A program made the translations under genes and the position numbers. The notes under the pieces were generated by a model. The model saw only the letters and a program-made list of their open reading frames with translations. It was not told where the DNA came from and ran no database searches. A stretch of DNA of 64,000 nt from positions 50,592,001-50,656,000 of the forward strand of contig NC_043001.1 in NCBI RefSeq assembly GCF_006345805.1, read 5' to 3'. The first letter of the stretch is position 1; the number at the start of each line of letters is the position of its first letter. Below, piece after piece: positions 3,549 to 50,299 of this stretch. Source of the stretch: Octopus sinensis (lineage: Eukaryota).

Positions 3549-3641
3549 CATTCAACTAAAAGTTCTTCAAGGCAGTGCTCCAGAATGGCTACAGTCTATT
3601 GACTGAAACAAATAAAATATATTTATATCTATATCTATATA

Positions 3642-3803
3642 CTGTATTTTAACGTGTATAAGGAACCCTTTTTTGTCAAAAATTAGCTGAAAAACATATG
3701 GGAGCTTCTTAGACATGGATAGTATTATAATACCTTACAAAACCTATTTTCAAAATTTTAAGCCCCCCAAATTGGAGGGTTCCTTTAACATGTTAAAATA
3801 CAG
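3642..3803. mobile_element. Small TA-flanked MITE (Tc1/mariner-type)
   Basis: TIR ctgtattttaacgtgtataaggaaccc / gggttcctttaacatgttaaaatacag, TA on both sides. Confidence 0.75.
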
Positions 3804-3836
<33 letters not shown>

Positions 3837-4138
3837 TTATATATATATCAGTAATAATATAGGGTGAAATTAATTAATTTGGAATAATCATTAGTTACAT
3901 CAAGTAGATTTTGGCATGTAAAAGCCTCATTCGAGGAAAGTTTAAGTAATACTAAGTAATTAAGGGTTTAGCAACGAATTGCCTCACCACACACCGTATT
4001 TAGAAATAGCAGTCAAAGAGTTATAGCTATTCTTTCTACTAAAAGGGAGATCTCAGTAAAAACACAGCACTTGAAAGGCAAACACAGACAGGTAAGAGAG
4101 AATGAAATGACGGCAATCTATCATACAATTTTAAGTCA

Positions 4139-4229
4139 CCTACGGACGTATGTTTCGAAATTAAGTTTTAGGAAAGCATAAGAATTAGATAATTATATCT
4201 TACCCAACTTCTTTTCTCATCAGCGTAGG
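4139..4229 (-). ncRNA. Type I hammerhead ribozyme motif (inverted copy)
   Basis: Minus strand: cctacg CTGATGA g...c GAAAC ATAC GTC cgtagg; 6-bp stem I. Confidence 0.75.
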
Positions 4230-4414
4230 ACACTACAATTACGAATAATTGTATATTAAATTTCGCTGGTGGGAAGGGGTTGGTGACACAAACTTTCATT
4301 CACACTTTGAATTTGGTGATACTGGTAACGGCTTTAGCTCGCTCTGATACTGAGTTGAGATGATGCCTTCTAGTATCTCGAAATTTAATATACAATTATT
4401 CGTAATTGTAGTGT

Positions 4415-4505
4415 CCTACGCTGATGAGAAAAGAAGTTGGGTAAGATATAATTATCTAATTCTTATGCTTTCCTAAAACTTAATTTCGAAACGTACGTCT
4501 GTAGG
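4415..4505 (+). ncRNA. Type I hammerhead ribozyme motif
   Basis: cctacg CTGATGA gaaaagaagtt...aacttaatttc GAAAC GTAC GTC tgtagg; palindromic minimal stem III; predicted cleavage after 4499. Confidence 0.8.
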
Positions 4506-4879
4506 TGACTTAAAATTGTATGATAGATTGCCGTCATTTCATTCTCTCTTACCTGTCTGTGTTTGCCTTTCAAGTGCTGTGTTTTTACTGAGATCTCCCT
4601 TTTAGTAGAAAGAATAGCTATAACTCTTTGACTGCTATTTCTAAATTCGGTGTGTGGTGAGGCAATTCGTTGCTAAACCCTTAATTACTTAGTATTTATA
4701 TATATATATATATATATATATAAATTAGAAAAAAACCCACCTTTTATCAATTCAATAATGAAAAATTAAATTATACCATTTAGAAAAATTGCATATTATA
4801 GAAAGATTAAATATAAGATAAGACATATAACAATGATTAAATAATGTGCAAAATAATAAATAAAACATATTTGGTAGAA

Positions 4880-17096: not shown

Positions 17097-17193
17097 CTTG
17101 TTCTATTTCTATTCCTGAGTGCCATACTAATACATTTGTTGGTTTGTACTCCACCTGCCTTCGTCTTTTGTTTATTTTCGTAAACCTTCCCGT

Positions 17194-17224
<31 letters not shown>

Positions 17225-17390
17225 ATTTATTTATATATTTTTATATACATATACATATATATATAAATATATATTTTATATATATATATTTTATTTCATT
17301 GTTGAATTGCTAAAAGGTGGTTCTTCTCTAATTTATATACATATATTTATAGATATATACATATATATTTACACATATATATATACATAT

Positions 17391-18743
17391 ATGGTCCGAC
17401 AACTGCAGGAGAAGTACCTAGCTAAAGATAAACCCCTCTACATAGCTTTTGTGGACTTGGAGAAAGCCTTTGACAGGGTTCCCCGATCCCTTATCTGGTG
17501 GTCGATGCGGAAACTGGAGATTGACGAATGGCTAATAAGGGCTGTACAGGCTCTATACAGAGAGGCTGTCAGCAAGGTTAGGATTGGCAACGAATATAGT
17601 GAAGAATTCCGGGTAGAAGTAGGTGTACACCAGGGCTCAGCCCTCAGTCCCCTTTTATTCATCATAGTCCTCCAGTCAATAACAGAGGAATTCAAAACAG
17701 GTTGCCCCTGGGAGCTCCTCTATGCTGATGACCTGGCCCTCATAGCAGAATCACTACCGGAACTAAAAAAGAAATTCCGGGTGTGGAAACAAGGGTTAGA
17801 ATCAAAGGGCCTTAGAGTAAATGTAGTAAAGACCAAAGTTATAGTATGCAGAAAGGCGAACTCAGCACACACCCCATCAGGCAGGTGGCCCTGCTCGAGC
17901 TGTAGGAAAGGTGTAGGTAGAAACTCCATAAGATGCACCCAGTGTAAGCTATGGACGCATAAGAGGTGCAGCAACATCAAAGGGAAATTAACTGATAAGA
18001 TAGCTTTCATGTGTGGCAGATGCACAGGGACAATAGACACCACAAATACTCAGAAAACAGATTCCATCACACTCCAGGGGGAGAAACTAGAAGTAGTTGA
18101 TAGTTTCCGCTACCTGGGTGACCAAGTTAGTAGTGGGGGTGGATGCTCAGAGAGTGTCACCACTAGAATACGAATAGCCTGGGCAAAGTTTAGAAAGTTC
18201 CTACCCCTACTGGCGACAAAGGGTGTCTCACTCAGAGTGAAAGGTAGATTGTATGATGCATGTGTGCGAACTGCCATGCTTCACGGCAGTGAAACATGGG
18301 CCGTGACTGCAGAGGACATGCGTAGACTTGAAAGAAATGAAGCTAGCATGATCCGCTGGATGTGTAATGTCAGTGTGAATGCACGACAGAGTGTAAGCAC
18401 CCTGAGAGAAATGCTAGGCATAAGAAGCATCAGATGCGGTGTGCAAGAGCGACGCTTGCGATGGTATGGTCATGTACTGCGGATGGATGAGGAGAGATGT
18501 GTGAAGAATTGCCACTCCCGAACAGTTGAAGGAATCAGGGGGAGAGATAGACCCAGGAAGACATGGGATGAGGTAGTCAAGCATGACCTCAGAGCGTTGG
18601 GCCTCACTGAGGCAATGGTGAAGGACCGAGATCTCTGGAGATGTGCTGTGACTACTAAGACCCAAGATGCTTCTGGCACCAGTTCCGCATACCCCCTGCC
18701 CATTCAAAGTACCTTGGATCCCGGAACATCTCAGTGTGCTTGA
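17391..18743 (+). CDS. 5'-truncated RTE-clade LINE reverse transcriptase ORF (uninterrupted) with embedded C4HC3 zinc finger
   Basis: FVDLEKAFDRVP, GVHQGSALSPLLF, LLYADDL, FRYLG, LRWYGHV, RPRKTW motifs; upstream part of the ORF-track entry is TA-repeat read-through. Confidence 0.93.
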   Translation: MVRQLQEKYLAKDKPLYIAFVDLEKAFDRVPRSLIWWSMRKLEIDEWLIRAVQALYREAVSKVRIGNEYSEEFRVEVGVHQGSALSPLLFIIVLQSITEEFKTGCPWELLYADDLALIAESLPELKKKFRVWKQGLESKGLRVNVVKTKVIVCRKANSAHTPSGRWPCSSCRKGVGRNSIRCTQCKLWTHKRCSNIKGKLTDKIAFMCGRCTGTIDTTNTQKTDSITLQGEKLEVVDSFRYLGDQVSSGGGCSESVTTRIRIAWAKFRKFLPLLATKGVSLRVKGRLYDACVRTAMLHGSETWAVTAEDMRRLERNEASMIRWMCNVSVNARQSVSTLREMLGIRSIRCGVQERRLRWYGHVLRMDEERCVKNCHSRTVEGIRGRDRPRKTWDEVVKHDLRALGLTEAMVKDRDLWRCAVTTKTQDASGTSSAYPLPIQSTLDPGTSQCA

Positions 18744-19459: not shown

Positions 19460-19992
19460 CATATATATATATTATATATATATTTATTTATATATTTTAT
19501 ATACATATATATATTTTATATATATATTTTATTTCATTGTTGAATTGCTAAAAGGTGGTTCTTCTCTAATTTATATACATATATTTATATTATATATATA
19601 TATATACGTTTATATATTTGTTGTGCAAAATTTTTTATGTGAAGTCGTGTGTTGGAACAGATATTGTTGTATTTCGGAATGGTCATTTTGCCAATTTAGC
19701 AAATATTTTTAAAATGTACTTACTCTGTCAGCTTCTTCAGATAATGTCAACTCAATTAGGGAATAAATGAATACATACCAGAGTTTCAAGAAACTGGAAA
19801 GAATAATAAAGTATTATACGGTTTATGTCCTGAAACAATGACATGTAGTATTTCCTTCATAAAGTGGCATTGCAAAAAGTGAGTAAGAACATATATATTT
19901 GCGTGTGTGAATATGTGTATGTATGGCTGAAATAAGATTAAGTTTAATGTAAAAAATAAATAACACTGAAGCAAAGTAACACCAAATATATA

Positions 19993-20531
19993 CACTTGCG
20001 TCGGAAATTAATTAGCACTTCTCAAATTTCTACATTTTCTTACATTTTCTTAATTTAATTAACTTATTATCAGAAATGAACTCGTTTTTAATCAAAAATG
20101 TATTAAAACATATCCCAGCACACCACATAATTGTGAAATTATTAATCGTGAAATTTAGTCAATATCTTGTTGCTCCTCCTTTGGCAGCAATGACAGCTGC
20201 TACGCGGGTCGGCATGCTGTCTATGAGTGCCTGCAGAAGTGCCCCAAACAGCTCGTGTCGGTTCCTGTATTGCTGCACATTCAAATCCCTACCCAATCGA
20301 CTCCAGAGGTTCTCAATAGGGTTCAGGTCAGGTGACTGCCCAGCACGTACTCCTCGCCACCAAAGAGGTATCCCGTACTATCTCAACGTACTTTGTTGCG
20401 TTGATGTTGCCTTCGACGGCATAGAGCCGCCCAACACCACTGTAGCTGAATGCCCCTCACACCATCAGACCACCCCCACCATGGTTCATGGTGAGCAAAT
20501 CAAGGGTGCTAATTAATTTCTGACGGTAGTG
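19993..20531 (-). mobile_element. Internally deleted Tc1 transposon
   Basis: 26-bp TIRs cacttgcgtcggaaattaattagcac / gtgctaattaatttctgacggtagtg; TA TSD; minus-strand QSPDLNPIENLW and LIDSMPTRVAAVIAAKGGATRY*. Confidence 0.9.
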
Positions 20532-20581
20532 TAGTGCGTGTGATTTTATTGGCTAAACTGGCAAAATGACCATTCCGAAAT

Positions 20582-20689
<108 letters not shown>

Positions 20690-21565
20690 TACATATACAT
20701 ACACATATTCACACACGCAAATATATATGTTCTTACTCACTTTTTGCAATGCCACTTTATGAAGGAAATACTACATGTCATTGTTTCAGAACATAAACCG
20801 TATAATACTTCATTATTCATTCCAGTTTCTTGAAACTCTGGTATGTATTCATTTATTCACTAATTGAGCTGACATTATCTGAAGAAGCTGACAGAGTAAG
20901 TACATTTTAAAAATATTTCAACAATAAACTTAAAATGATACAACTTATTGTAACATTCTATTCAAAATTCACTTCTGAGAACTACTTTATCATAATTGCA
21001 CATGTTCATTTAATAGATTTAAAGTAACAATTAGCAACAATTAATTAACAAATAACCCAAGCAGAATACTCTTGAACATTAAGAGTTCACAATTTTTATG
21101 GTCTGCAGAGAATTTGACAAAACTCCAGTGTAGGATAGGTCCAAATATTATGTTATAATACATCAGAAAATAATATGCTAGCATTTCATGTGTGTATACT
21201 GACATTAAGGTGTATATGTTCTAGAACACTCCATAATTTATAAAGAAAACATTATTGATATTTTAGATTCCTGTAATTCACTGTGCTTCAAACTTATCTT
21301 ATAGTAACAGAAGACTTTTACAATGCTTAACAGAATTTATTTACAATACTTAACAGATATGAAAAATTGTGTAGATAAATTAAACAGGCATTATAAAAAT
21401 TATGTCAATTGCATGTAGTGGTTATGGTCCTCACCTCATGCAAATGTAAGTATTAAATTAGGAAAATTTGTGACAAATGATACATGAAATATGAAAAAAA
21501 TTTATGAGAAGACACACCTTAGATAAAAGAAGGAAGGATACAGACAAAAAAACATGACAAACAGA

Positions 21566-21602
<37 letters not shown>

Positions 21603-21834
21603 ATATAAATATATATATATTATATGACGAAAGAAGAATGAATTTTTTAGGTTGTTCAATTTTTCTTAACCAACCAATGAGCCAGTTGAGTAAATCCATC
21701 AATAACAAACCTATAATGATTTCTGAAAACAGTTGTAAGCCAAATTGACTACAATAAAGATAAATATCTAATGATGATTATTTATACTTTGTCTTATATA
21801 TATATATATATTTATTTATTTATTTATATATATA

Positions 21835-22220
21835 AAAAATACAAAAATGGGACAAGAATGCAAAACATCCAGACAATTAGGTGATACAAAAAGAAGACAA
21901 CAAAACATCCAGACAGACGATACAAAGAAAATAAGGACGAGTCATTCAGAGTTTTCTATCCTCAGTCGAGTTCCAGATTATCTTTGCAATTTTGGTTGGT
22001 TATATTGGAGATTGCTCCCCTTGAGGCTGGCCAGATTGGAGCAATCTTGAGTATAATCAGCCGAAATTGCAAAGATAATGTGGAACTCGACTGAGGATAG
22101 AAAACTCCGAATGACTCGTCCTTGTTTTCTTTGTATCATCTGTCTGGATGTTTTGTTGTCCCTTTTTTGTATCACCTGTCTGGATGTTTTGCGTTCTTGT
22201 CCCATTTTTGTATTTTTTCT
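21835..22220. repeat. TA-flanked palindromic element (~185-bp arms, ~19-nt loop)
   Basis: aaaatacaaaaatgggacaagaa...gagattgctcc / ggagcaatct...ttcttgtcccatttttgtatttt. Confidence 0.85.
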
Positions 22221-22251
<31 letters not shown>

Positions 22252-22424
22252 ATAAAAAAAAAATAAATATATATATATATAAGACAAAGTATAAATAATC
22301 ATCATTAGATATTTATCTTTATTGTAGTAAATTTGGCTTACAGCTGTTTCCTGTAATCATTATAGGTTTGTTATTGATGGATTTACTCAACTGGCTTAAA
22401 ATAATACAACTTATTGTAACATTG

Positions 22425-33877: not shown

Positions 33878-34895
33878 GATCTTTAACTTTTGACCGACAG
33901 AATGTGTCATATAAAATATCTTCCACTCTTAGCGTTTTTGAGAAAAGCTTATATTTAGGAAGTTATTTCACGTTAAAGATGTAGTATTTTGGTAATTTCA
34001 ACCAATCAATGACGTGTATTCAGCTGAATAAAATTACTGCTGTTGTTTGTCAACAACTATAGGCAGTGTATTTTTCGTTTGTCACTGTAATTTATATCGT
34101 TCGTGCGTTTGTACTGGTTTTAGGGTTAGGGTTGTCATAAATAACGGTGACAAACGAAATATACACCCCCGGAAGTTCTTGTTGACAAACAACAGCAGTA
34201 ATTTTATTCAGCTGAATACACGTCATTGATTGGTTGAAATTACCGAAATACTACATCTTTAACGTGAAATAACTTCCTAAATATAAGCTTTTCTCAAAAA
34301 CGCTAAGAGTAAAAGATGTTTTTTATATGACACATTCTACTAGTGTCCAAAGTTTGAAAGTGTTTAGTTACAAAAAATTATTTTTAAAATCTGTCGGTCA
34401 AAAGGAAAAATATCGGTACCTTTGGTCATCTCCACCAACTAAAAAAATTGTTCAACCCTCAATAAAACAAAGAAAATAATAAACATGAAAACGGAAAAAA
34501 TAAAAAGGAAAACTGGGCAAGTTCTGCCCGCCCCCCTCCCAACCACCCTTTAAAAATTTTTTGGATCTTTACATTTTGACTTACAGATTTAAAAAATAAT
34601 TTTTTGTAACTAAAGACTTTCAAACTGCAGACACTGGTAGAATGTGTCACATAAAACATCTTTTACTCTTAGTGTTGTTGAGAAAATTCTGTATTTTGGA
34701 AGCTATTTTTTTGTTAAAGTTGTCGTATTTCTGTAATTTCAACCAATCAATGATATGTATTCAGCTGAATAAAATTACGGCTGTTGTTTGTCAACAACTA
34801 TTGGCGGTGTATATTTTGTTTGTCACTGTTATTCATGACATCGTTTGTGTGTTTGTACTGGTTTTAGCTTTAAGGGGTTAGGGTTAGGGCTAGGG
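33878..34895. mobile_element. Cluster of related Merlin-like MITEs; first copy is fold-back (arms 33899-34056 / 34179-34338)
   Basis: Terminal gatctt...tttgaccgacag / ctgtcggtcaaaag; second copy from 34563 ends in ttagggttagggctaggg. Confidence 0.7.
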
Positions 34896-45942: not shown

Positions 45943-46277
45943 TATATGTATATATATATATATATATATATACATACATATATATATATATTATATATAT
46001 ATATATAATATATATATATATATAATATATACACACACATATATATACATACATTATATATACACACATATATAAATATATATATATATATACTTATATA
46101 TAAACATATATATATGCATATATATTTACATATATATATATATATTGCAATAAGGGTTATAGCTATTTCTTCTACTAAAAAGGGAGATCTCAGTAAAAAA
46201 ACAGCATTTGGAAGGCAGAGACACAACAGGTAAGAGAGAATGAATTGACTGCAATCTATCATACATTTTTTTAGTTA

Positions 46278-46384
46278 TCTACGGACGTACGTTTCGAAAT
46301 CAAGTTTTTAGGAAAGCATAAGAATTAAATATTAAATATTAAATAATTCTATCTTACCGAAACTTCTTTTCTCTTCAGCGTAGA
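46278..46384 (-). ncRNA. Type I hammerhead ribozyme (inverted copy)
   Basis: tctacg CTGAAGA g...c GAAAC GTAC GTC cgtaga on the minus strand. Confidence 0.82.
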
Positions 46385-46706
46385 ATACTATAATCATAAA
46401 TGATTATATATTGAATTTTGAGATACCAGAAGGCACCAACTCAACTCAGTATCAGAGCGAGCTAGAATCCGCAACTGGTATCACCGAATTCAATTTGTGA
46501 ATGAAACGATTGTGTCAACATCCCCTTCCCACCCGCGTGTAGCCAAAACAAGATGCTGTGGTCATCTACTGAGATAAATAATCGTTTCATTCACAAATTG
46601 AATTCGGTGATACCAGTTGCGGATTCTAGCTCGCTCTGATACTGAGTTGAGTTGGTGCCTTCTGGTATCTCAAAATTCAATATATAATCATTTATGATTA
46701 TAGTAT

Positions 46707-46811
46707 TCTACGCTGAAGAGAAAAGAAGTTTCGGTAAGATAGAATTATTTAATTTAATATTTAATTCTTATGCTTTCCTAAAAACTTGATTTCGAAACGT
46801 ACGTCCGTAGA
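46707..46811 (+). ncRNA. Type I hammerhead ribozyme, unit 1
   Basis: tctacg CTGAAGA gaaaagaagttt...aaacttgatttc GAAAC GTAC GTC cgtaga; predicted cleavage after 46805. Confidence 0.85.
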
Positions 46812-47303
46812 TAACTAAAAAATGTATGATAGATTGCAGTCAATTCATTCTCTCTTACCTGTTTGTGTCTGCCTTCCAAATGCTGTTTTTACTGAGATCT
46901 CCCTTTTTAGTAGAAGAAATAGCTATAACCCTTTGACTGCTATTTCTAAATTCGGTATGTGGTAAGGCAATTCGTTGCTAAACCCTTATTGCTTAGTATT
47001 ACTTAAATTTTCCTCGAATGAGGCTTTTACATGCCGAAGACTACTTGGTGTAATTGATAATTTTTCCAAATTAATTAATTTCACCCTTCATTATTACGGA
47101 TAACCATATTTTATCTCAGTAGATGACCACAGCATCTTGTTTTGGCTACACGCGGGTGGGAAGGGGATGTTGACACAATCGTTTCATTCACAAATTGAAT
47201 TCGGTGATACCAGTTGCGGATTCTAGCTCGCTCTGATACTGAGTTGAGTTGGTGCCTTCTGGTATCTCAAAATTCAATATATAATCATTTATGATTATAG
47301 TAT

Positions 47304-47410
47304 TCTACGCTGAAGAGAAAAGAAGTTTCGGTAAGATAGAATTATTTAATATTTAATATTTAATTCTTATGCTTTCCTAAAAACTTGATTTCGAAACGTA
47401 CGTCCGTAGA
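47304..47410 (+). ncRNA. Type I hammerhead ribozyme, unit 2
   Basis: Same motif; predicted cleavage after 47404. Confidence 0.85.
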
Positions 47411-47906
47411 TAACTAAAAAAATGTATGATAGATTGCAGTCAATTCATTCTCTTACCTGTTTGTGTCTGCCTTCCAAATGCTGTTTTTACTGAGATCTCC
47501 CTTTTTAGTAGAAGAAATAGCTATAACCCTTTGACTGCTATTTCTAAATTCGGTATGTGGTAAGGCAATTCGTTGCTAAACCCTTATTGCTTAGTATTAC
47601 TTAAATTTTCCTCGAATGAGGCTTTTACATGCCGAAGACTACTTGGTGTAATTGATAATTTTTCCAAATTATTAATTAATTTCACCCTTCATTATTACGG
47701 ATAACCATATTTTATCTCAGTAGATGACCACACAGCATCTTGTTTTGGCTACACGCGGGTGGAAAGGGGATGTTGACACAATCGTTTCATTCACAAATTG
47801 AATTCGGTGATACCAGTTGCGGATTCTAGCTCGCTCTGATACTGAGTTGAGTTGGTGCCTTCTGGTATCTCAAAATTCAATATATAATCATTTATGATTA
47901 TAGTAT

Positions 47907-48013
47907 TCTACGCTGAAGAGAAAAGAAGTTTCGGTAAGATAGAATTATTTAATATTTAATATTTAATTCTTATGCTTTCCTAAAAACTTGATTTCGAAAC
48001 GTACGTCCGTAGA
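47907..48013 (+). ncRNA. Type I hammerhead ribozyme, unit 3
   Basis: Same motif; predicted cleavage after 48007. Confidence 0.85.
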
Positions 48014-50299
48014 TAACTAAAAAAATGTATGATAGATTGCAGTCAATTCATTCTCTCTTACCTGTTTGTGTCTGCCTTCCAAATGCTGTTTTTACTGAGA
48101 TCTCCCTTTTTAGTAGAAGAAATAGCTATAACCCTTTGACTGCTATTTCTAAATTCGGTATGTGGTAAGGCAATTCGTTGCTAAACCCTTATTGCTTAGT
48201 ATATATATATATATATATATATACACTCACACATACACACACACACCACACACACACACACACCACACACACACACATATATATATATATCTATATATAT
48301 ATATGTATGTATGTATACATACATATATCTTTAGTTAAATATATTCAATGAGAATATTATATACTGAATTTATATTGAGTGCGCTATTGTATTAAAGTAT
48401 TTATGTATTTAATATGAGCGATTATATATATTTTATATAATATATTATTATTAATATCAGGAAACCAATATTAGAAAATTCTTCAGAATGATATATACAT
48501 GTGTAAAATAACAGTTGTATTAAAATTATAAATATATATAAATATATGTAAATATGTATATGTATAAATATATAATAATAAATATGATAGTTTAAAAGTT
48601 TCGGATTACACTGTTTGTCAAGCAGTAAGATAGGGGACAAACACAGACTCAAAGACACACACACACATAGATATACATATAAAATCCACTCACATGGCTT
48701 TGGTCAGCCTGAGGCTATAGCAGAAGACACCCGCCCAAGGTACCACACAGTTAGACTGAACCCAGAACCATGTGGTTAAAAAGAGAGTGGGAGGGAGAGA
48801 GAGAAACAGACAGAAAGACAGAGGTTTGCTTAATCAGAACTGACATGGAGTTACACAACAACAAACAAAAATAAGAAACCCTTTTCATGGCCACTTGATC
48901 TCAGCAAACATCCACAAACTGAATAATTATCTATTGTTGTCTAATTTAAAATCACATGTAAAATACCTTATCTTTTAAATTAACAAAACAAATGTTTCCT
49001 CTGTTACAAGAATAGATAACAAAATGGAAATCAGAGCCAATGGAAAATAAAAAAAAATTCAAATATGTCCTCATTGTGAACCTCAGCTTTGACCCTAAAC
49101 CTAACCCTAATCCTAATTTAACTAAGAGCAACTCCTTATGTAAGTAAATTTTAACTCTTTTATATCTATGAAAAATCTTCTTTGTTACAAGAATAGATAC
49201 TAGAATGAAAACCTTGGGTCAGTGGAAGGTACAAATGAGTCAACTATTGACTTTATTACCATTGAGAAACATACTTTGACTCAAAAATGATATCTTATCA
49301 AGTCCAAACTTTTATATTAGATTTATGAGAATTCCTACTGAGAGTTTAAACTAAATTATTTTAATGCTCATGTTACGTGCAATAATATTCTTTACAACAA
49401 TCAAATTACAAGATTAGGGACAGATGTGTATGGAGAAGAACACTGATATCTGTTGCAATTTTTGATAACAAAACTTTTATTCTTTTTGTACACAAAAAAC
49501 AAATACTGTTCTTATTACAAATGGAAAAATATCAAGAGAGTTTGGCTGTTATTGTTCTTGGTGTAATTGTAACAGCAATCTAAAAGTTAGCTGCTGGTTG
49601 TTGTGTTGCTGTGGCTGGTCATTCATTGTGCCTGTTGTCAGCTTGGGTCAGTATCTGTCTGCATCTTTGTAATGTTTGTCTGCCATCTTGTCTCTGCTAC
49701 CTCTCAATGCTCTCTCCAAGCCTTCTGTCAAAAGTCAAGGTGTGTTAAATTTATACTAATGGTTAGGCTCAGAAGGAAGTGCACCAAACAATGAAATCAT
49801 TGCTGGAACCTATTCCATACAAAGTTGTGATTGATCAGATTTTGTTGATCATGTGAGTAATATTCTAGCAAATTGTGACATCAGGTGTAGTGATCTGACT
49901 GCTGAACATTCCCGCTACAGATGTAAGACTTTGCTGTACACTTTGTGTGACACTATTCACAGGTACACCAATAATTTATAATTATTTCTTACTGCTAGAT
50001 CTGTAACTTGCATTCTAAATAGAGTTGTAGGATTGTCTGGGATAATTTCTGTAGGCTGGGAATCATAGGTAATTGCTTACAAGCAGTCATTTCATATTTC
50101 ATCGAAGTGATGAATCAACAGAAATGTTAGAGTGTAGATAAACAGCCATTATGTATATATGTATATATGGATGGATTTGGGTGGGTAGGTAGGCGGGTAT
50201 GTATGATCTTCTCTCTCTTTTCAATTTAGAGTAAATTTTGAGCAACCACCCACTTGGTAGCAAGGTTGCGAAGGAAAGCATCTTTTGTTCATCATCCTT

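What the first reader, a model, noticed from the sequence alone, without database searches (positions are those of the whole stretch)
3849..4696. Diverged sister element as a fold-back with sense and antisense hammerheads, showing stem I covariation
Seen: same family as the 46-48 kb unit but clearly diverged. The HHR core is retained (CUGAUGA versus CUGAAGA differ only at variable N7), and stem I co-varies (cctacg/cgtagg versus tctacg/cgtaga). Both elements end at the same point (...cttagt followed by TA repeat). The 318-bp arms form a long hairpin. Inference: covariation supports selection on the RNA fold; the shared terminus implies a defined, TA-targeted integration mechanism; fold-back transcripts are candidate ADAR or siRNA substrates.
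Basis: partly seen in the sequence, partly recalled or inferred. Interest (0 to 1): 0.72.

Follow-up and report, generated by a model that had tools for sequence, protein, structure and literature searches.

The report
Two-armed hammerhead retrozyme insertion
This hairpin is one young copy of a protein-free jumping repeat, present in thousands of copies, that carries a predicted self-cutting RNA motif; its two back-to-back arms end at two different fixed points, which likely records a borrowed Penelope-type enzyme copying one RNA from both sides of a DNA break.

Summary
Window 3846-4694 is a head-to-head pair of partial copies of a 584-nt non-coding unit with a type I hammerhead motif, between (TA)n tracts. 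It belongs to a young subfamily (98% to 45 other copies); the 46-48 kb array is a sister subfamily (84%). One covarying pair between two copies is weak, but across five families 5 of 6 stem I pairs change on both sides and 11 of 11 core positions are invariant. There are two fixed ends, not one: a short end S and a tailed end T about 105 nt downstream. Two-armed insertions pair S with T in 19 of 21 and 26 of 27 loci (two samples). This fits a non-LTR retrozyme mobilised by a Penelope-like enzyme that likely primes both nicked strands on one, probably circular, RNA. The hairpin is likely a by-product that would bury its own ribozyme; no editing or small-RNA evidence was found. Cleavage, circles and the partner enzyme are not shown. 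The scan noted the same end pairing before on other DNA.

The parts
3804..3848 (.). Left (TA)n tract, target site
3846..4265 (-). Arm T: 420 nt of the unit (unit positions 464-584, 1-299; position 1 = first base after the predicted cut), ending at the tailed end T
3846..3947 (-). Tail, about 102 nt between end S and end T; present on this arm only
4139..4229 (-). Type I hammerhead motif of arm T; stem I intact, loop 3 palindrome broken by one change
4264..4265 (.). Head-to-head junction of the two arms, 2-nt overlap, no TA between them
4264..4694 (+). Arm S: about 431 nt of the unit, ending at the short end S; reaches 113 nt further 5' than arm T
4415..4505 (+). Type I hammerhead motif of arm S: stem I, CUGAUGA, 60-nt helix II domain, GAAA, 2-bp stem III with palindromic loop, GUC; predicted cut after 4499
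4609..4694 (+). 5' half of the conserved multi-stem domain that holds end S; likely binding and start region for the reverse transcriptase (inferred)
4693..4722 (.). Right (TA)n tract, target site
46152..48202 (+). Sister subfamily B insertion: one inverted partial unit plus about 2.7 tandem units of 597-603 nt, three sense hammerheads

Best explanation
This is one young, likely inactive copy of a non-coding 584-nt hammerhead repeat (a non-LTR retrozyme), and its fold-back likely arose when a borrowed Penelope-type enzyme primed both nicked strands of a (TA)n tract on one, probably circular, RNA at two fixed start sites. Steps: (1) tandem source arrays are transcribed (inferred); (2) the hammerhead cuts out unit-length RNA, which is circularised (predicted; known for other retrozymes); (3) a Penelope-like RT/GIY-YIG protein binds the conserved multi-stem domain 90-290 nt downstream of the cut site (inferred from conservation); (4) one nick primes at S (unit position about 195), the opposite nick at T (about 299-306), each at a TA-like spot of the RNA (end positions shown, priming inferred); (5) both cDNAs run through the ribozyme site, round and round in long arrays, and are joined head to head by microhomology (junctions shown, order of events inferred). 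With less than one unit per arm and the antisense arm first in either read-through direction, this locus would bury its own ribozyme in a 318-bp duplex and could not release a unit RNA (predicted).
For: Copy number: 2,576 exact matches to a 16-nt core motif vs 1 in the control; 12,367 to the 3' domain motif vs 0. Ends, sample 1 (39 loci behind the first 100 matches): 22 two-armed; of 21 with both ends visible 19 pair a short end (152-202) with a long end (291-306); 14 of 16 one-armed loci end at S, 1 at T (binomial p 1.1e-4, Fisher p 2e-7). Sample 2 (20 loci picked by a T end, 20 by an S end): 16 of 20 T ends have an inverted S arm, 10 of 20 S ends have an inverted T arm, 26 of 27 two-armed loci are S+T. 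Families C and others show the same two ends about 100 nt apart. One template: both arms here share G at 4402 where 43 of 43 other copies have A; neither arm is contained in the other. No stop at the cut site: 2 of 76 inner breakpoints within 10 nt of it. L170: about 15 units share 17 non-majority variants, 2 in a subset, 2 private. Fold: 11 of 11 core columns invariant in five families of 55-89% identity against 38% background; stem I 5 of 6 pairs with two-sided changes, all slid controls lower; 3' domain 98% paired, 5 two-sided changes; circular fold z -4.7 to -8.9 sense vs -0.3 to -3.6 antisense. RT+GIY-YIG elements that end at (TA)n, some with a short tail, exist in the genome. Literature: inverted copy, one-sided tail, TA targets (PMC8557442, PMC3846280); tail = span between two internal RT start sites, both strands nicked and extended, predicted dimer (PMC11167929).
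Against: No cleavage, circle or transcript is shown. No sequence match links units A-D to the UTR of an autonomous element: the hits in 40 loci around GIY-YIG matches were neighbouring retrozyme insertions, where viewed separated from the element by TA tracts, and only 150 of 5,029 candidates were scored. In vitro, the anole element showed no difference in start site between the two strands and did not need ribozyme cleavage (PMC11167929); 8 of 9 frog dimers did not cleave (bioRxiv 10.64898/2026.07.22.740005). Exceptions to the pairing: L171 (S/S), L183 (202/246), L266 (T/T), and the sister array in this window, whose left end looks S-like after an internal deletion. The tail is about 105 nt, not the 30-40 nt described. 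Arm lengths correlate only weakly in the unbiased set (rho 0.41, p 0.07, n 21, crude arm calls). The hammerhead fold lies 1-4 kcal/mol above the local minimum. Covarying cells are few independent events and related sequences inflate the shuffle control. One of 20 T-picked loci (L268) does begin exactly at the cut site.
Confidence: 0.62

Rival explanations
1. Same element and same two start sites, but the template is an uncut linear multimer transcript of a tandem array, not a circle; the ribozyme is weak or works at another step.
For: cDNAs cross the cut site either way. Ribozyme mutants did not change insertion by the anole element in vitro and no reads ended at its cut site (PMC11167929). 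Short stem III and a 60-nt helix II could make cleavage slow.
Against: Arrays up to about 15 units are homogeneous for locus-specific variants, also across both arms (L170, L182), as repeated passes over one unit predict. Core and stem I are kept across five families, and 12 of 13 hammerheads reached in loci picked by the 3' domain alone have an intact CUGANGA.
Confidence: 0.22
2. The second arm is a DNA-level copy of the first (snap-back or template switch of the cDNA), or is primed later by host repair, so no second enzyme start is needed.
For: Junctions show 0-3 nt overlaps or short fillers; palindromic junctions were read as self-priming in rotifer elements (PMC3846280). In roughly half of loci arm S lies inside arm T.
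Against: At this locus arm T has a tail missing from arm S and arm S has 113 nt missing from arm T, so neither can be copied from the other. By my reading about 8 of 19 S+T loci have an S arm that reaches beyond the T arm. Snap-back does not give a fixed second end at T.
Confidence: 0.08
3. The fold-back is kept by the host as a source of double-stranded RNA for ADAR editing or small RNAs.
For: If transcribed it folds into a near-perfect duplex (-598 kcal/mol). Contigs of runs guessed to be RNA hold family sequence.
Against: The shape is the default for 22 of 39 loci; the arms carry private changes inside the ribozyme; no A>G excess in inherited variants; no host coding exon is evident nearby.
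Confidence: 0.05
4. A MITE or fold-back DNA transposon with long terminal inverted repeats, two separate insertions into one TA tract, or an assembly artefact.
For: Inverted arms between TA repeats resemble a TA-inserting MITE.
Against: Ends are asymmetric, junctions vary, units are tandem; arms are joined without TA and share a private variant; arms differ at 3 sites; head-to-head joints of other copies appear in contigs of independent runs.
Confidence: 0.03

Closest known systems
Metazoan non-LTR retrozymes (coral, mussel, axolotl: PMC7229834, seen: abstract, passages, sections 14 and 17; vertebrate survey: bioRxiv 10.64898/2026.07.22.740005, seen: parts 1-3 of 5)
   Same: Non-coding, AT-rich tandem units, one type I hammerhead per unit, thousands of dispersed copies, strongly folded unit, short stem III with palindromic loop as in amphibian repeats, proposed mobilisation by Penelope-like elements.
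   Different: Units of 557-603 nt (170-400 nt in PMC7229834; 51-972 in the preprint); helix II domain of 25-76 nt; (TA)n targeting and two-armed insertions with paired S and T ends are not described in the parts read. Expression and cleavage are not shown here.
Insertion units of endonuclease-bearing Penelope-like elements (PMC8557442 and PMC3846280, seen: passages)
   Same: Partial tandems, inverted 5'-truncated copy, tail on one end, (TA)n targets (Naiad, Hydra), hammerhead in the repeated part.
   Different: No ORF; tail about 105 nt rather than 30-40; no homology to a sampled autonomous element.
Poseidon element of Anolis carolinensis in vitro (PMC11167929, seen: parts 1-2 of 4)
   Same: Two internal RT start sites in a stem-loop downstream of the hammerhead define the tail; AT-rich target nicked and extended on both strands.
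   Different: No strand bias in start site in vitro, whereas the genomic copies here pair S with T almost always; template here is non-coding and probably circular.
Non-autonomous Chlamys elements such as MRC1 (PMC8557442, passage)
   Same: Non-coding head-to-tail multimers mobilised by Penelope-like enzymes.
   Different: Those resemble their autonomous partners at the 3' end and that clade lacks canonical hammerheads; here a hammerhead is present and no partner was found.

Membership tests
Metazoan non-LTR retrozymes | Tandem units, each with a type I hammerhead | tested here: met
   Met by the family: three sense hammerheads in the window's B array, arrays up to about 15 units.
Metazoan non-LTR retrozymes | [quoted passage not shown] | tested here: not met
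   This locus has about 0.7 unit per arm, one hammerhead each, in opposite directions.
Metazoan non-LTR retrozymes | Non-coding, GC below 45% | tested here: met
   No stop-to-stop frame of 120 aa or more at 3846-4694; GC 34-36%.
Metazoan non-LTR retrozymes | Small unit size | tested here: inconclusive
   584 nt: above the 170-400 nt of PMC7229834, inside the 51-972 range of the preprint.
Metazoan non-LTR retrozymes | Expressed as linear and circular unit RNA | not testable with these tools
   Only contigs of runs guessed to be RNA; indirect signs.
Type I hammerhead ribozyme | Core CUGANGA, GAAA, NUH with stems I-III, stem I open | tested here: met
   Families C, D, E have A-A at the base of stem II.
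Type I hammerhead ribozyme | Loop 1-loop 2 tertiary contact | not tested
   Not examined.
Type I hammerhead ribozyme | Self-cleavage | not testable with these tools
   Needs an in vitro assay.
Penelope-like element insertion footprint | Inverted 5'-truncated copy adjoining the direct copy | tested here: met
   22 of 39 loci.
Penelope-like element insertion footprint | Tail at one end only | tested here: met
   19 of 21 and 26 of 27 two-armed loci; length about 105 nt, longer than described.
Penelope-like element insertion footprint | (TA)n target | tested here: met
   59 of 59 visible 3' ends.
Autonomous Penelope-like element | ORF with RT and GIY-YIG | tested here: not met
   No ORF in the unit.
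Non-autonomous derivative of a named Penelope-like family | Sequence shared with the partner's pseudo-LTR | tested here: inconclusive
   None in 40 loci around GIY-YIG matches or six UTRs; most families were not sampled.

The most novel reading that the evidence does not exclude
A Penelope-type enzyme dimer docks on a conserved, covarying multi-stem domain of one circular retrozyme RNA and primes the two nicked strands of a (TA)n tract at two fixed sites about 105 nt apart; both active sites roll round the circle and the cDNAs are joined head to head. The inverted repeats and one-sided tails of Penelope-like elements would then be the direct print of coordinated double priming, and this 12,000-copy superfamily supplies a compact natural template to test it.
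Probability: 0.45. Interest if true: 0.72.

Novelty: new member of a known kind. Interest (0 to 1): 0.48.

Why it matters
How Penelope-like elements build their tandem and inverted ends is named as open in PMC8557442, and mobilisation of animal retrozymes by these enzymes is proposed but not shown (PMC7229834, 2026 preprint). The copies here give a counted rule (one S end plus one T end per two-armed insertion), mapped start sites and a covarying RNA domain, which makes both questions testable with a 584-nt template. The locus itself is an ordinary dead copy. Thousands of such near-perfect hairpins could be a genome-wide source of double-stranded RNA, but that is untested.

Tried and rejected
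Rfam scan: no ribozyme match; the motif was found by reading, and my first motif script missed it because helix II exceeded its length limit. RNA evidence: no RNA holder on record; contigs of four runs guessed to be RNA hold family pieces, none of the listed pieces bridges the locus junction, lists were cut: no verdict on expression, editing or small RNAs. Editing imprint in inherited variants: none (13 A>G vs 15 T>C among 52 locus-unique shared variants). Core decay vs flanks within families: core 0-0.5% vs rest 0.9-2.0%, but those copies were partly picked by an intact core, so I do not count it. Partner search: no homology to sampled Penelope-like UTRs; retrozymes beside such elements (L106, L193, L234 viewed) are separated from them by TA tracts, so shared targeting explains them. 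Metagenome scan: 15 motif matches, 0 of 15 with similarity to the units. One search used a mistyped pattern and is uninformative. One search counts are inflated on the minus strand by the variable gap, so only its places were used. Arm-length correlation was weak. Literature searches listed no paper describing this family or the S+T pairing; Repbase/Dfam entries, subscription papers and supplements (for example supplementary file S1 of PMC8557442) were not seen and could hold it.

Full report
What is there. The window lies in G000, a 2.72-Gb animal assembly. I guessed an octopus from recalled repeat content and earlier notes say so; I did not test it. Between (TA)n tracts at 3804-3848 and 4693-4722 sit two partial copies of one unit, joined head to head at 4264/4265. 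The overlap of the copies is the 318-nt inverted repeat, with three mismatches. Each arm has a type I hammerhead motif: stem I CCUACG/CGUAGG, CUGAUGA, a 60-nt helix II domain, GAAA, a 2-bp stem III closed by a palindromic loop, and GUC. The + copy has C to U next to the cut site and the - copy has G to A in loop 3; both changes are essentially private to this locus.

The family. Searches of G000 gave tandem units of 584 nt (subfamily A, this locus) and 597-603 nt (B, the 46-48 kb array). Related families C (557 nt), D (561 nt) and E turned up as neighbours through similarity in the 3' part, not through the ribozyme. A 16-nt core motif of A and B occurs 2,576 times against 1 in the control; a motif of the shared 3' domain 12,367 times against 0. 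The locus is young: a median 98.4% identity to 45 other A copies.

Is the fold under selection? With one copy from each of five families (55-89% identical), 11 of 11 core columns are invariant against 38% elsewhere. On a 16-sequence alignment stem I has two-sided changes at 5 of 6 pairs, stem II at 2, and all six slid controls score lower. Within B one stem I pair goes U-A, U-G, C-G (the C-G form comes from one array). A second domain, 90-290 nt downstream of the cut site, is the most conserved part (60% invariant), 98% paired with 5 two-sided changes. Units fold better than shuffles in the sense strand (z -4.7 to -8.9) than in antisense (-0.3 to -3.6; 25 shuffles each). Of 30 hits picked by the 3' domain alone, 13 reach the ribozyme and 12 of these have an intact CUGANGA. 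Caveat: these are few independent changes among relatives, and the tool warns that its shuffle control is inflated by kinship. The constraint acts between source lineages; it says nothing about a host function of this copy.

Ends. Counting from the predicted cut, 3' ends fall at S (about 193-202) or T (291-306), never at the cut. In an unbiased sample (the 39 loci behind the first 100 matches), 59 of 59 visible 3' ends abut TA runs of 8 nt or more; 22 loci are two-armed; 19 of the 21 with both ends visible pair a short end with a T end; 14 of 16 one-armed loci with a visible end stop at S and 1 at T. Independent choice of ends cannot give more than 50% mixed pairs (p 1.1e-4). A second sample, 20 loci picked by a T end and 20 by an S end, gave 27 two-armed loci, 26 of them S+T and one T+T (three were read by eye from flanks). 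Genome-wide, 931 exact S/TA junctions match one pattern, control 0. This locus is a typical S+T pair. The sister array in the window is an exception: its left end looks S-like after an internal deletion.

One template, crossed at the cut site. Both arms carry G at 4402 where 43 of 43 other copies have A, and neither arm is contained in the other, so both were likely copied from the same RNA rather than from each other. Inner breakpoints are spread over the unit; 2 of 76 lie within 10 nt of the cut, about the chance share, so a linear cut monomer is not the main template. Long arrays are homogeneous: L170 has 17 non-majority variants in all units, 2 in a subset and 2 private; L182 shares 11 across both arms. 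This fits repeated passes over a circle, but an uncut multimer from a homogeneous parent array is not excluded.

Enzyme. G000 holds RT plus GIY-YIG elements that end at (TA)n, one family with a tail of about 35 nt in one of three copies viewed. None of 40 loci or six UTRs shares sequence with units A-D beyond neighbouring insertions; only 150 of 5,029 candidates were scored. The partner is inferred from the footprint, not identified.

Comparison. Non-coding tandem units with type I hammerheads are non-LTR retrozymes, shown in coral, mussel and axolotl to give circles and proposed to use Penelope-like enzymes (PMC7229834: abstract, passages, sections 14, 17; preprint 10.64898/2026.07.22.740005: parts 1-3 of 5). 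Inverted copies, one-sided 30-40 nt tails and TA targets are known for Penelope-like elements (PMC8557442 and PMC3846280: passages). The tail equals the span between two internal RT start sites, and the enzyme nicks and extends both strands (PMC11167929: parts 1-2 of 4). That study saw no strand difference in start site and no need for cleavage, which counts against the strongest form of my reading. Seven paper searches listed no description of this family or of the S+T rule; repeat databases and supplements were not seen. I had noted the S+T rule before looking at earlier scan notes; several of them report the same pattern in other families. They are not independent support.

The hairpin. A read-through transcript from either side meets the antisense arm first and folds into a near-perfect duplex that would bury the ribozyme; the locus has no two consecutive units. 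It is likely a dead copy. The ADAR and small-RNA idea could not be tested, and inherited variants show no A>G bias.

Verdict. Observation confirmed, interpretation partly supported. New member of a known kind, with a well-counted footprint of likely paired priming; interest 0.48.

Noticed in passing
window 21680-22396: Another nested fold-back between TA tracts; its centre holds a minimal hammerhead-like motif (CUGAGGA, two bases, GAAA) in both orientations, likely a head-to-head pair of Penelope-like ends.
   Followed up: no
L109 1174-4874, L111, L107, L108, L112, L116, L123: An abundant RT+GIY-YIG element has an upstream frame of up to 479 aa overlapping the 781-aa frame, with the same break in at least seven copies; looks like a true two-frame or frameshift design.
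   Followed up: no
L064, L107, L108, L114, L125: Further unrelated type I hammerheads with long helix II (39-61 nt) and mostly palindromic loop 3; the design recurs across the genome.
   Followed up: no
L193; L106, L234: A 6-kb retrozyme array sits in a TA tract between two converging Penelope-like 3' ends; retrozymes and these elements often stack in the same TA tracts.
   Followed up: partly
L103, L053, L206 (families C, E, D): A-A mismatch at the base of stem II, and GUU or GUA cut triplets in some subfamilies; could change cleavage rates.
   Followed up: no
L268: One insertion begins exactly at the predicted cut site, a possible trace of a linear cut template.
   Followed up: no
window 3610-3803: A short element with terminal inverted repeats abuts the left TA tract; MITE-like and repeated in other runs.
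   Followed up: no
window 17184-18743: 519-aa frame whose translation looks like a LINE reverse transcriptase, by eye.
   Followed up: no
window 33909-34326 and 19701-20918: Two more long inverted repeats (148 nt, 97%; 224 nt, 98%) without an obvious hammerhead.
   Followed up: no
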